A DNA stretch of 57,178 nucleotides from the NCBI RefSeq assembly GCF_001447785.1, contig NW_015170896.1:108575-165752 (forward strand), read 5' to 3'. A program made the position numbers. Within the stretch, counting starts at the first letter, position 1, and each line of letters opens with the position of its first letter. This DNA comes from Gekko japonicus (taxonomy: Eukaryota). Of this stretch, positions 17,801 through 20,800 are shown piece by piece.

Positions 17801-20800
17801 GCTCTGCTCATTTGCCCCATACATCCATATCGTACACTTTTCTATGTCTGAAATGTGGCATGAGCGTTTTATTTCACTGTCAGCATATGGATAGGAAACC
17901 CATGTAGAGAAAATATCACATACTAAAGAATCCCTCAATTAATCCTTTCGTTCTTTCTCTGCTTATGATATACAGAAAGTTCTAGGTTGTATGTTCTCCA
18001 TTTTCTGATGCATACACAAGAGGAAGAAACAGAGGTAGATCGGGGAGAGAGCAAAAAATGCCACCTTCATGGCAGGCAGAGAAATTTAGTAAAGGACTAT
18101 ATGTCCTGACCAGTGTTCCTTCTAAGCTGAGTTAGTGTGAGCCAGCTCACAGTTTTTGAGCCTCCGGCTCACACATTTTTGTCTCCGCTCAGGAAGGAGG
18201 GCTCCAGAGCAAACTAATTTATGCAACAGTCGTATTGCTCGCTCACAACTTTCATGCTAATAGCTCACAAAGTAGAATTTTTGCTCACAAGACTCCACAG
18301 CTTAGAGGGAACATTGGTCCTGACCAATGTTCCCTCTAAGCTGTGGAGTCTTGTGAACAAAAATTCTACTTTGTGAGCTGTTGGCATTAAAGTTGTGAGC
18401 GATCGATTGGGCTACTGCATAAATGAGTTTGCTCTGGAGCCATTCTTCCTGAGCGAAGACAAAAATTTGTGAGCCGGAGGCTAAAAAACTGTGAACTGGC
18501 TCACACTAACTCAGCTTAGAGGGAACACTGGTCCTGACCTGGATGTCCCAGGTTAGCCTGCTCTCCTCAGATCTCAGAAGCTGAGCAGTGTCGGCCATGG
18601 TTAGTTCCTTGGATGGAAGACCACCAAAGAAGTCCAGGGTTGTGACAAAGAGGCAGGCAATGGCAAACCGTCTCTGAACGTCTCTTGCCTTGAAAACTCT
18701 GTGGGTTTGCCATAAGTCAGCGGCGACTTGACAGCACTTACCAGCACCACGACCACCACCAAAGGACTATATGGAATAAATAAAGCCATGTAATGTATAT
18801 GTGTAAGATAAACAGGAAATATTTCACCTCAGCAGGCCTTTTTAAACTTTTGGTCCTCGTTGAGGTCTGCACTTCTGAATCAAATTAGGAACTGGGACCT
18901 AGGAACCAACTCAGTCTTATATAAAATGGACGACCCTTCTTCCTGTCAGCCTGGCCGAGAAAGGTCTACGTTAGAATCCGATCTACCCTCTTCTGTTTAG
19001 TCAGCTATAAAGTTGAACCTTGGACCAAAGAAAGTCGATGCATCCAAAGTATTTGTGTCCATCTAGCAGATTGAGAGCCAGTCCCAAGCTTCTGAGCTAA
19101 GGGGATTTTATTGTTAACTCATGTTCTGCCTCTCTATCCAGTCCTCAGCCCTTAGAGTGTACATTTCCCTCGTACCCATGATATTGGAGGAGAGGAAACC
19201 TTTGTAGCCAATAGGAGTCGCTAGAGAGAGGACACCCAATATTCTGCGTAAAAGTGCATTTTTTAAAAAAGCAAATCCTACACAAATTTCCGCGTGTCTC
19301 TTTGTGGAAGATCCTCTCATCTGCTTCCTCTCGTTCCCTATTCGTTGTCTGTTCTTCTACTTTGCTGCAAGATTAACAAACTAGCACATAAGTCCTGGTT
19401 CAAAATTTTACGGAATTCAAAAGGTTTTAGGGGAAAGAGGGTTTTTTTAATGGGATTTTAATGACTTTTGTGAAATGACTGCAGAATGGGAACAGCTTCC
19501 AGATGCTGGCAAGGGACACCTAAAAAAAGGAAATGGCTACTCTTATTTATTTCTCAGAAAACTTGGTTCTCTAACCTGCCACTTCCCCCTGCAATAGAGA
19601 TACACATTTGCCTTCAGTACCCACATTCCAGTGTACTAATGTCTGTCCCTTTCCCAAAGAATCCAGAAATCCTGTCTTTCACAAGAGCAGACACTGGTTC
19701 CCTTCCTCAGAAACAAAATAAGAGCCCTGTGGTACCTTTAAAGACTGACAGATTTATTGTAGAATAAACTTTTGTGGCCTTGATCCTGCAATAGTAGGCT
19801 CGGAGACCAGGGCATTCTGGTTCGTTAGGTACTTTCCCCCGCCAATCTCTGTTGCCATCTTTTGTCCCCCAAATTCTTGGCATGTGCTTTTTCCTCAGCT
19901 CTCAGTCACTAGACCAGCAGAGGCATCGTTCCATATTTCAATAAGGCAAGGAGAGAGGGTAATATTTTATAGATCTGACATGTAGGTTAGGGGTATAAGC
20001 CTTCCTCCCTCAAACCCAGTACACCTTCATAACACAAAAGTCCTAGCGTTGCATTCCCACCTCCTTGAAATGAAACTCTCTCCTTTACCAGAAACCCCAG
20101 AAATCTTGATCTTCTTCCATATTCTGCGCTATCCCTCCATGACCTTCCTAAACCTCAGGAATCCAGGTACCCCATTCCTACCCCCCCTTTCTGTTACACC
20201 AGCCCCCCCTTTCCAATTCAGACACTTCAAAAATCATGACTCCCCATTCCGGCAGACACGCATTATGACCTCCCAAATGCCCTTTGCAGAGATCTCAGGA
20301 GCTGGGGGACAAACCCCCCCCCCCAAATTCTACCAGATTCCTTTTCACCCACTGCTTTCCCAAAAAACTCAAGAGCCCTGGCTCTCCTGACCCCCCCTCC
20401 CCACCCGTAGATCGCCACCCTATGGAAATTCAACCCCCGCACTTTCCAGTGTGTTAGGAAGATGCCCCGTTTCGTAGGTGCTAAAATTGAGCTATTGCGG
20501 TTTAATCCACTCCCCCCCTCACTTTTGCTCTCTGTCGCTCTCCACGGTGCTGAACTGCAGCGTTGCATCCAGTGATAGCAGAGAGAGAGAATACACAGAG
20601 TGTGTGTGTGTGGGGGGGTAGCTTTCTTCCTGCTTCTAAGCCTCATCGCTGGTAGAGGTTATTCCGTGATTTTTTATTTTAAAGGAAGAAAGAGAACTGG
20701 AGAGAATATTAATGGATTATCACAGGGTGTCAGGTGGTGAATGGGGAGGGGGGTGACATACGCAATATTCCACCTAAGCATTGTTGTACAGAAAATGGGG

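What the first reader, a model, noticed from the sequence alone, without database searches (positions are those of the whole stretch)
18091..18772. Two hAT MITEs in opposite orientation at one 8-bp target (TSD x3), nested in a 5S SINE
Seen: GTCCTGAC-[MITE+ 18111-18316]-GTCCTGAC-[MITE- 18325-18530]-GTCCTGAC. This target is the first 8 nt of a 5S-headed SINE (compare the start of the 38028 copy), which has its own 12-bp TSD. The two MITEs differ at many positions, so this is not a simple recent duplication. Inference: exact re-use of a target next to an existing TIR suggests transposase recruitment by resident ends or a strong site preference. The result is a ~420-bp stem-loop in the KCNC3 pre-mRNA.
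Basis: partly seen in the sequence, partly recalled or inferred. Interest (0 to 1): 0.65.

Follow-up and report, generated by a model that had tools for sequence, protein, structure and literature searches.

The report
Two transposons sharing one target site
Two small cut-and-paste transposons landed, in opposite orientations, in exactly the same 8-base target inside an older repeat in a gecko potassium-channel intron; this double insertion is a known by-product of transposon target preference and is neat but ordinary.

Summary
GTCCTGAC occurs at 18103, 18317 and 18531 and abuts the termini of two 206-nt MITEs: A at 18111-18316 (+) and B at 18325-18530 (-). They are 187/206 identical. Both sit at the first 8 nt of a SINE that has its own 13-nt duplication.

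The MITE is hAT-like. It has 9 copies in the window, 8-bp duplications, 19-nt inverted termini and repeated GCTCAC motifs.

All three 8-mers are direct repeats although the elements are inverted. This rules out a simple inverted duplication and points to two staggered-cut integrations at one target. A and B are as diverged from each other as unrelated copies, and the tree is a star.

The target matches nTCnnGAn at 4 of 4 positions. The six other duplications match at 13 of 24 (p = 0.002).

TSD-element-TSD-element-TSD dimers formed by double insertion are already described for P and hobo in Drosophila (PMC5932611). Recruitment by resident ends is neither shown nor excluded.

The pair lies in intron 1 of a Kv3 gene and folds into a roughly 436-nt hairpin in silico. 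The public name of the gene is KCNC1-like, not KCNC3.

The parts
18091..18103 (+). Left copy of the SINE's own target-site duplication, AAAGGACTATAT(G). The last G is shared with the 8-mer.
   Evidence: 13-nt exact direct repeat with 18761-18773 (D10).
18103..18110 (+). 8-mer copy 1 (GTCCTGAC), the left duplication of MITE A.
18111..18316 (+). MITE A, 206 nt, hAT-like. Its left (5'-type) end faces outward. It carries GCTCAC at 35, 57, 131, 153, 173 and GTGAGC at 27.
   Evidence: BLAST family of 9 copies. Termini CAGTG...CATTG. 192/206 identical to the 8-copy majority consensus. Motifs.
18317..18324 (+). 8-mer copy 2 (GTCCTGAC), the shared junction between the two right (3'-type) ends.
   Evidence: Same orientation as copies 1 and 3.
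18325..18530 (-). MITE B, 206 nt, same family, inverted. Its left (5'-type) end faces outward.
   Evidence: 90.8% identical to A on the opposite strand. 194/206 identical to the consensus.
18531..18538 (+). 8-mer copy 3 (GTCCTGAC), which is the native first 8 nt of the SINE.
   Evidence: The unoccupied SINE copy at 38028 starts with the same 8-mer and the same following 6 nt.
18531..18760 (+). 5S-related SINE, the older host element.
   Evidence: 78% identity over 110 nt to the 38028 copy, which scores as 5S rRNA in Rfam. This copy itself has no Rfam 5S match at E<=1.
18761..18773 (+). Right copy of the SINE's target-site duplication.
   Evidence: D10
38028..38484 (+). Second 5S-headed SINE. 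Its first 8 nt (GTCCTGAC) are unoccupied. It carries another MITE of the family at 38143-38350 with a perfect duplication, GTCGGGAG.
15621..15686 (.). 66-nt palindromic mini-element. Two left-type ends are joined at the GTGAGCTAGCTCAC palindrome. It has its own perfect 8-bp direct duplication, GCCCAGGT.
   Evidence: one unmatched pair against its own reverse complement.
12856..13455 (+). Kv3 exon 1 (N-terminus and T1/BTB domain), followed by a GTGAGT donor.
   Evidence: Pfam BTB_2, 100.5 bits. Boundaries.
32709..33641 (+). Kv3 exon 2 (S1-S6 and proximal C-terminus), preceded by a polypyrimidine tract and CAG. Intron 1 (13456-32708) holds the dimer.
   Evidence: Pfam Ion_trans, 156.6 bits. Kv3.1 structures at 605 bits against Kv1.2 at 224 bits. 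Boundaries. 100% identity to a named gecko protein.

Best explanation
There were three successive insertions at one spot. First, a 5S-headed SINE retroposed into intron 1 of a Kv3 potassium-channel gene and made a 12-13-nt duplication. Second, a hAT-type MITE integrated with 8-bp staggered cuts around the SINE's first 8 nt (GTCCTGAC) and duplicated them. Third, an independent copy of the same MITE family integrated, in the opposite orientation, into the copy of that 8-mer abutting the resident's right end, giving a third copy. Which MITE came first cannot be told.

The exact re-use is best explained by a very abundant family combined with a real but moderate target preference (nTCnnGAn). The 8-mer fits that preference perfectly, and each duplicated copy keeps it. 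The outcome is a tail-to-tail palindrome of about 436 nt. Transcribed with the intron, it would fold into a long imperfect double-stranded RNA hairpin.

Shown: the anatomy, the order SINE then MITEs, the independence of the two copies, the preference, and the in-silico fold. Inferred: that preference plus abundance is sufficient cause, that transposase acted in trans, and that the hairpin forms or is edited in vivo.
For: 1. The three 8-mers all read GTCCTGAC on the + strand while the elements are inverted. Seen in B's own orientation, its flanks read GTCAGGAC. Direct repeats are the signature of staggered-cut integration.
2. The right 8-mer is the SINE's native start, as shown by the unoccupied paralogue at 38028.
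3. The family makes 8-bp duplications elsewhere. Among the 7 other copies, 4 are perfect (38143, 22266, 13573, 15621), 2 are 7/8 (34606, 36451) and 1 has none (541).
4. A and B differ at 19 of 206 positions: 6 private to A, 6 private to B, 1 where both are unique, and 6 where both states occur in other copies.
5. A-B identity (90.8%) lies within the range of the closer unrelated pairs (86.8-91.2% among the six best-preserved copies). The maximum-likelihood tree of the 8 copies is a star: 0 of 5 inner forks are supported, and the end branches of A (0.058) and B (0.046) are typical against a median of 0.058.
6. Target preference. I took T2, C3, G6 and A7 from the NTCTAGAN consensus of Anolis hAT families (PMC3014272, Table 1 as shown in passages). 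The six non-dimer duplications match at 13 of 24 positions against 6 expected (binomial p = 0.002). The dimer target matches at 4 of 4.
7. Precedent. Dimers with an intact TSD-length junction arise by double insertion of P and hobo. Junction motifs there fit the preferred target better than single insertions do, and head-to-head P tandems are cited from a genetic screen (PMC5932611, passages).
Against: 1. Under my preference model, exact re-use among 9 copies in this window has an expectation of only 0.0057 (uniform model: 0.0013). Preference alone makes this a rare event per window. It becomes unsurprising only across a whole genome scan.
2. A and B share 2 states that no other copy has (columns 84 and 160). 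This is the highest of 28 pairs; the others have 0 or 1. It is a weak hint (roughly p = 0.03 by my Poisson arithmetic) that the two are closer kin than random copies.
3. An identical target, GTCCTGAC with the same 6 downstream bases, stands unoccupied at 38028. The site is therefore no absolute hotspot.
4. The preference estimate rests on six duplications.
5. No empty or singly occupied allele could be examined.
Confidence: 0.75

Rival explanations
1. Homing or local re-insertion. The second MITE was directed to the resident's flanking duplication, either by transposase bound to the resident element or because it was the resident's own sister-chromatid copy, excised after replication and re-inserted next door. 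The re-use would then be mechanistic and not a matter of preference and numbers.
For: - Exact re-use is a 0.1-0.6% event per window under the uniform and preference models.
- A and B share 2 unique states, the most of 28 pairs.
- Each MITE carries 4-6 copies of GCTCAC/GTGAGC in the six best-preserved copies, against 0.08 per 206 bp in the rest of the window. These could be transposase-binding repeats of the kind the multimeric Hermes transposase binds (bioRxiv 10.1101/2022.09.16.508221, passages).
- A second structure with two outward left-type ends and its own duplication lies 2.4 kb away at 15621-15686.
Against: - The tree gives no support for A and B as sisters.
- Their identity equals that of unrelated pairs.
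- The two shared states may be subfamily markers that eight copies cannot reveal.
- The re-used 8-mer abuts the right (3'-type) end of the resident. In Hermes that end is not held by the BED domains. This is an analogy only.
- The other seven copies in the window are not clustered around each other.
Confidence: 0.15
2. Inverted duplication of a single insertion, by replication template switch or hairpin repair, or an assembly artefact that creates a false palindrome.
For: - The two arms form one long inverted repeat (217 nt, 90%) with only 2 nt between them.
- The 8-mer is itself half-palindromic (GTC..GAC).
Against: - A mirror duplication would put GTCAGGAC on the right and a symmetric centre. 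All three copies instead read GTCCTGAC, and the right one is the SINE's own start.
- The arms differ at 19 of 206 positions, as much as unrelated copies do. An artefact or a recent duplication would be near-identical.
- The gecko assembly whose protein matches this window was built from HiFi reads (bioRxiv 10.64898/2026.08.10.744031, passages). That the window comes from that assembly is my inference.
Confidence: 0.03
3. The dimer is a composite mobile unit that transposed here as a whole, using its two outer left-type ends.
For: - The outer ends are both left-type, inverted and intact.
- The 66-nt element at 15621-15686 shows that a structure with two left-type ends carries a genuine 8-bp direct duplication.
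Against: A composite would bring its central 8-mer from the donor locus. That 8-mer would equal the new flanking duplication, which is also the SINE's native start, only by a chance of about 4^-8. No other dimer copy occurs in the window.
Confidence: 0.02

Closest known systems
Double-insertion dimers of P element and hobo in Drosophila melanogaster (McGurk & Barbash 2018, PMC5932611; passages read)
   Same: Two complete DNA transposons are separated by exactly one TSD-length (8 nt) copy of the target. That work attributes the arrangement to repeated insertion at a preferred site. hobo belongs to the hAT superfamily. Inverted tandems are also mentioned.
   Different: Here the elements are non-autonomous MITEs in a vertebrate (gecko), are inverted (tail-to-tail) and are old, at about 6% from consensus each. 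That study concentrated on head-to-tail dimers and recent insertions. Its list of inverted tandems is in Supplemental Table S2, which I could not open.
hAT non-autonomous families of lizards (Novick et al. 2010, PMC3014272; Table 1 as shown in passages)
   Same: 8-bp duplications with palindromic consensus of the type NTCTAGAN or NYYTARRN, termini beginning CAG.G, sizes of a few hundred bp, and high copy number.
   Different: None of the table rows shown in the passages (calls are limited to 12 passages, so the tables were not seen whole) has the terminus CAGTGTTCCCTCTAAGCTG. The nearest strings there (CAGTGTTCCCTCACT, TcMar-N11/N16) belong to TA-duplicating mariner-type families, whereas this family makes 8-bp duplications. 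The family name is therefore unknown to me.
Hermes (hAT) end architecture (bioRxiv 10.1101/2022.09.16.508221; passages)
   Same: The ends are asymmetric. There is a quasi-palindromic pair of subterminal repeats near the left end only (here GTGAGC(C/T)AGCTCAC at positions 27-40), plus further subterminal repeats.
   Different: The motif sequence differs. Binding by any transposase is untested, and no autonomous partner was seen.
Inverted Alu pairs in primate introns as long double-stranded RNA substrates of ADAR (recalled, no call)
   Same: Two oppositely oriented copies of one repeat in an intron form a long imperfect hairpin.
   Different: Here the spacer is only 8 nt, the repeats are DNA transposons, and no RNA data were examined.

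Membership tests
hAT-superfamily MITE | 8-bp target-site duplication | tested here: met
   Of 8 insertion sites, 5 have perfect 8/8 duplications (the dimer site plus 38143, 22266, 13573, 15621), 2 have 7/8 (34606, 36451) and 1 has none recognisable (541).
hAT-superfamily MITE | Short terminal inverted repeats beginning with the YARNG-type motif (motif recalled) | tested here: met
   19-nt termini: CA(G/A)TGTTCCCTCTAAGCTG at the left, and its complement at the right.
hAT-superfamily MITE | Target consensus nTnnnnAn, or the palindromic NTCTAGAN type | tested here: met
   T2/C3/G6/A7 are matched at 13 of 24 positions in the six non-dimer duplications (p = 0.002) and at 4 of 4 in the dimer target. 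The central TA of NTCTAGAN is not matched. The sample is small.
hAT-superfamily MITE | Ends shared with an autonomous element that encodes a hAT transposase (BED, DDE, hATC) | not testable with these tools
   No eukaryote genome or repeat library was available. Only 8 of the window's 133 long ORFs went to Pfam, and none was a transposase.
Double-insertion transposon dimer | Both elements have intact termini, and the junction holds exactly one TSD-length copy identical to both outer duplications, in direct orientation | tested here: met
Double-insertion transposon dimer | The two elements are distinguishable, independent copies | tested here: met
   19 of 206 differences, a star tree, and 6 sites where A and B carry alternative states that both occur in other copies. 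Caveat: 2 uniquely shared states.
Double-insertion transposon dimer | Singly occupied or empty allele at the same locus in relatives or in the population | not testable with these tools
   No related genomes were available. Only a paralogous unoccupied target exists, at 38028.
5S rRNA-derived SINE | 5' part related to 5S rRNA | tested here: inconclusive
   The 38028 copy meets this: Rfam 5S_rRNA at 47.5 bits (gathering 38), model positions 1-120. The 18531 copy does not by itself: no 5S match at E<=1. It is linked through 78% identity over 110 nt to the 38028 copy.
5S rRNA-derived SINE | Retroposon-style flanking duplication of variable length | tested here: met
   13-nt and 11-nt exact duplications around the two copies.
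KCNC3 (Kv3.3) gene | Orthology to KCNC3 and not to another Kv3 paralogue | tested here: inconclusive
   Kv3 family membership is clear. The 100%-identical public protein, and the 94-96% hits in five other squamates, are named 'KCNC1-like'. The nearest alligator and turtle hits (87-91%) are named KCNC3, and a named Pogona KCNC1 is at 89%. No tree or synteny analysis was done.

The most novel reading that the evidence does not exclude
This hAT family homes to the duplications that flank its own resident copies, through multimeric transposase held on the GCTCAC repeats or through sister-chromatid re-insertion. It thereby repeatedly builds palindromes with two outward left-type ends, which can themselves be mobilised or collapse. 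On this reading the 66-nt palindromic mini-element with two left-type ends at 15621-15686, which has its own 8-bp direct duplication, is either a collapsed second dimer or a transposed derivative of one. That would make two such events within 3 kb.
Probability: 0.12. Interest if true: 0.55.

Novelty: new member of a known kind. Interest (0 to 1): 0.3.

Why it matters
As it stands, this is a clean textbook-quality example of double insertion at one target, in a vertebrate and with MITEs, and it dates three nested events. It also places a long, nearly perfect palindrome with an 8-nt spacer in the first intron of a neuronal potassium-channel gene.

Three things make it of modest wider use:
- It is a natural test case for how long palindromes are tolerated in a vertebrate genome.
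- It is a candidate source of intronic double-stranded RNA (editing, or small RNAs).
- If genome-wide counts exceeded expectation, it would be evidence that hAT transposases target their own resident copies.

None of these is shown here.

Tried and rejected
- Rfam at E<=1 over 18000-18900 gave 7 matches. All were below their gathering scores: microRNA-precursor families in six rows (e.g. MIR8565 at 79.4 bits against 136) and one snoRNA family, each centred on the hairpin. I read them as generic long-hairpin matches, not as membership.
- Rfam gave no 5S match for the 18531 SINE copy.
- The bare count of GTCCTGAC in the window is not significant.
- The tree of the 8 copies resolved nothing.
- A full-text search for phrases such as 'MITE dimer', 'tandem MITEs' and 'composite MITE' found 17 papers. 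None describes TSD-sharing MITE dimers. Two were transposon papers that use 'composite MITE' in another sense, and I saw their listing only.
- Searches yielded one directly relevant paper (PMC5932611). I therefore do not claim that MITE dimers of this type are absent from print; only these searches were made.
- The Anolis transposon paper shows no family with this terminus in the passages I saw.
- The copy at 541-746 has no recognisable duplication. I left it out of the target statistics.
- ORFs that run across N stretches (for example 11231-12556) were ignored, and no N was filled.
- Unchecked because closed or absent: metagenome and viral contig collections, any eukaryote genome collection, repeat libraries, and supplementary files.
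Full report
**Source of the window.** The window is not human. Exon 2 of the gene it carries is 100% identical over 311 residues to a protein named for the gecko Euleptes europaea. The next hits are other squamates at 94-96%. The window holds five N stretches; I left them alone and ignored ORFs that cross them. The gene model was examined exon by exon.

**What is in the sequence.** Reading 18091-18773 gives this order:

| Coordinates | Feature |
|---|---|
| 18091-18103 | AAAGGACTATAT(G) |
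| 18103-18110 | GTCCTGAC |
| 18111-18316 | MITE A, + strand |
| 18317-18324 | GTCCTGAC |
| 18325-18530 | MITE B, - strand |
| 18531-18538 | GTCCTGAC, followed by the rest of a SINE up to 18760 |
| 18761-18773 | AAAGGACTATATG |

- The repeat finder reports the two arms as 18103-18319 and 18322-18538: 217 nt, 90% complementary, 2 nt apart. It reports the 13-nt outer direct repeat as exact.
- A and B are each 206 nt and align without gaps at 187/206.
- The 8-mer occurs four times in the window. The fourth occurrence is the first 8 nt of another SINE copy at 38028.
- The bare count of four is not significant: 21 of 100 shuffles reach it. The significance lies in the placement, with three identical 8-mers each touching a transposon terminus to the base.

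**The MITE family.** BLAST of A and B against the window finds nine copies:

| Copy | Flanking duplication |
|---|---|
| A and B | shared GTCCTGAC |
| 541-746 | none recognisable |
| 13573-13757 | perfect 8 bp |
| 15621-15686 | perfect 8 bp |
| 22266-22470 | perfect 8 bp |
| 34606-34811 | 7 of 8 |
| 36451-36637 | 7 of 8, a CpG transition, once an internal 14-nt deletion is allowed for |
| 38143-38350 | perfect 8 bp |

- The termini are 19-nt inverted repeats, CA(G/A)TGTTCCCTCTAAGCTG. Beyond them the two ends differ, so a left and a right end can be told apart.
- The six best-preserved copies carry 4-6 copies of GCTCAC/GTGAGC, against 0.08 per 206 bp in the rest of the window.
- Two of these motifs form a quasi-palindrome, GTGAGC(C/T)AGCTCAC, at positions 27-40 of the left end only.
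- This layout resembles Hermes, where a left-end-only quasi-palindromic pair of subterminal repeats is bound by transposase BED domains (bioRxiv 10.1101/2022.09.16.508221, passages).
- The 8-bp duplications, the CAG.G termini and the palindromic target consensus are those of hAT families, as tabulated for Anolis (PMC3014272, passages showing Table 1).
- No row shown there has this terminus. No autonomous partner could be sought. I therefore call the family hAT-like without a name.

**The SINE.** The copy at 38028 begins GTCCTGACCTGG directly after an 11-nt duplication (TGAGGATTTAC, repeated at 38485). It scores as 5S rRNA in Rfam: 47.5 bits against a gathering score of 38, model positions 1-120. 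The copy at 18531 is 78% identical to it over the first 110 nt but does not itself reach any 5S score at E<=1. Two further copies start GCCCTGAC or GCCCTGGAC. The resemblance of the SINE body to squamate SINEs is recalled only and was not tested.

**Order of events.** The SINE's own duplication encloses both MITEs, and the triplicated 8-mer is the SINE's native start. The SINE therefore came first and the MITEs followed. Which MITE was first cannot be told, since they are 192/206 and 194/206 identical to the consensus.

**Why two integrations and not one duplication.**
- A mirror-image duplication of 8-mer plus element would leave GTCAGGAC on the right and a symmetric centre. All three copies instead read GTCCTGAC on the + strand. 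Direct repeats around inverted elements are what two staggered-cut integrations at one target produce.
- A composite dimer arriving as a unit would carry a foreign central 8-mer.
- The 19 differences split into 6 private to A, 6 private to B, 1 where both are unique, and 6 where both states occur in other copies.
- The tree of the 8 longer copies is a star. None of its 5 inner forks is supported, and the end branches of A and B are typical.
- An assembly artefact would give near-identical arms.
- Against full independence, A and B share two states seen in no other copy. This is the most among 28 pairs; the rest have 0 or 1. By my rough Poisson arithmetic that is p of about 0.03. Eight copies cannot tell a subfamily marker from shared descent.

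**Why the same 8 bases.**
- I took T2, C3, G6 and A7 from the independent lizard hAT consensus NTCTAGAN. The six other duplications match at 13 of 24 positions against 6 expected (p = 0.002). The re-used target and the 38143 target both match at 4 of 4.
- I weighted all 54,649 candidate positions by this preference. The expected number of exact re-use pairs among nine copies is then 0.0057, against 0.0013 under uniform insertion, a 4.3-fold gain.
- Re-use is thus rare per window but not per genome. At this window's density and 1.78 Gb my arithmetic gives about 50 dimers under uniform insertion and about 200 with the preference.
- If the family is capped by the 1.5% of the genome annotated as DNA transposons, the figures fall to about 10 and 40.
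- That the window comes from that assembly is my inference.
- A first-stage scan of many windows would meet such dimers.
- The identical target at 38028 is unoccupied, so the site is no absolute hotspot.

**What is known.** McGurk and Barbash (PMC5932611, passages read) showed the following:
- P-element and hobo dimers carry an 8-nt TSD in the junction.
- These dimers arise by double insertion at one site.
- Junction motifs fit the preferred target better than single-insertion sites do.
- Inverted tandems exist.
- They cite frequent head-to-head P tandems from a genetic screen.

Their list of inverted tandems is in a supplement that I could not open. The present case is therefore a further member of a described kind. 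It is new in host (a gecko), in element type (a MITE), in its tail-to-tail orientation and in its age.

**Recruitment by resident ends.** This remains open.
- For it: the low per-window expectation, the two shared states, the dense putative binding motifs, and a second structure with two outward left-type ends nearby.
- Against it: the star tree, the ordinary A-B distance, and the fact that the re-used 8-mer abuts the right end of the resident. In Hermes that end is not gripped by BED domains (an analogy only).

**The nearby 66-nt element.** Positions 15621-15686 hold two left-type ends joined exactly at the palindrome GTGAGCTAGCTCAC. There is one unmatched pair between the arms, and the element is flanked by a perfect direct GCCCAGGT duplication. 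A direct duplication argues against an in-situ fold-back, which would mirror the flank. Two readings remain:
- A palindromic derivative transposed here.
- A tail-to-tail dimer like A-B collapsed between its two copies of the palindromic motif, which read alike in both orientations.

I could not decide between these.

**The gene and the RNA.**
- Exon 1 (12856-13455; BTB_2 at 100.5 bits) ends at a GTGAGT donor.
- Exon 2 (32709-33641; Ion_trans at 156.6 bits) follows a pyrimidine tract and CAG.
- Exon 2 matches Kv3.1 structures at 605 bits, against 224 bits for Kv1.2.
- The dimer therefore lies in intron 1, on the sense strand.
- Public names conflict. The identical protein and five other squamate hits are 'KCNC1-like'. 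Alligator and turtle relatives at 87-91% are 'KCNC3'. A Pogona 'KCNC1' is at 89%.
- The N-terminal ball-like peptide (Pfam PF11601) and the C-terminal motifs look Kv3.3-like to me from recall. Orthology was not tested.
- Folded as RNA, 18091-18560 gives one hairpin at -374.8 kcal/mol (shuffles -133.8 +/- 5.8, z = -41, 0 of 100 as good).
- Whether the hairpin forms, is edited or is processed in vivo is inference. No RNA data were available.

**Verdict.** The double-insertion reading is well supported. The site-preference explanation is supported in kind but modest in strength. Recruitment is untested. The phenomenon is already described elsewhere.

Noticed in passing
window 15621-15686: A 66-nt palindromic mini-element made of two left-type MITE ends joined at the GTGAGCTAGCTCAC motif. 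There is one unmatched pair between the arms, and it has its own perfect 8-bp direct duplication, GCCCAGGT. It is either a mobile derivative with two left-type ends or the collapsed remnant of another tail-to-tail dimer.
   Followed up: partly
window 38028-38495: A second 5S-headed SINE (Rfam 5S_rRNA, 47.5 bits). Its identical GTCCTGAC start is unoccupied, but it carries a MITE of the same family at 38143-38350 in a different target, GTCGGGAG, which also fits nTCnnGAn at 4 of 4. In all, 3 of the 9 MITE copies in the window sit inside 5S-type SINEs.
   Followed up: partly
window 33339-33452: Rfam K_chan_RES (potassium channel RNA editing signal) matches at 100.8 bits (gathering 51) inside Kv3 exon 2. 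The aligned stretch is the conserved coding sequence for the pore and S6, and six positions are flagged as belonging to non-standard pairs. The hit may reflect coding conservation and not an editing hairpin in this paralogue.
   Followed up: partly
window 12856-13455 and 32709-33641: The Kv3 gene starts with an inactivation-ball-like N-terminus (Pfam PF11601, 38.4 bits) that the fish, bird and other hits named plain KCNC1 lack (the Pogona KCNC1 row is an exception), yet squamate records call it 'KCNC1-like'. Alligator and turtle relatives are called KCNC3. This looks like an annotation-name inconsistency.
   Followed up: partly
window 18249-18392: The centre of the MITE palindrome gives sub-threshold matches to several microRNA-precursor families in Rfam (for example MIR8565 at 79.4 bits against a gathering score of 136). 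These are generic long-hairpin matches. They do show that automated miRNA finders would flag this locus.
   Followed up: no
window 541-746: A full-length MITE copy without a recognisable 8-bp duplication (flanks ATAGACAC and AACACAGT), lying 60 bp from a 5S-type SINE fragment at 290-481. Flank decay or a small rearrangement are possible.
   Followed up: no
window 18241-18290 (and the same positions in other copies): Three GCTCACAA motifs spaced 20-22 nt apart in the right half of the MITE. They are invariant across the 8 aligned copies while neighbouring columns vary. These are candidate transposase-binding subterminal repeats.
   Followed up: partly
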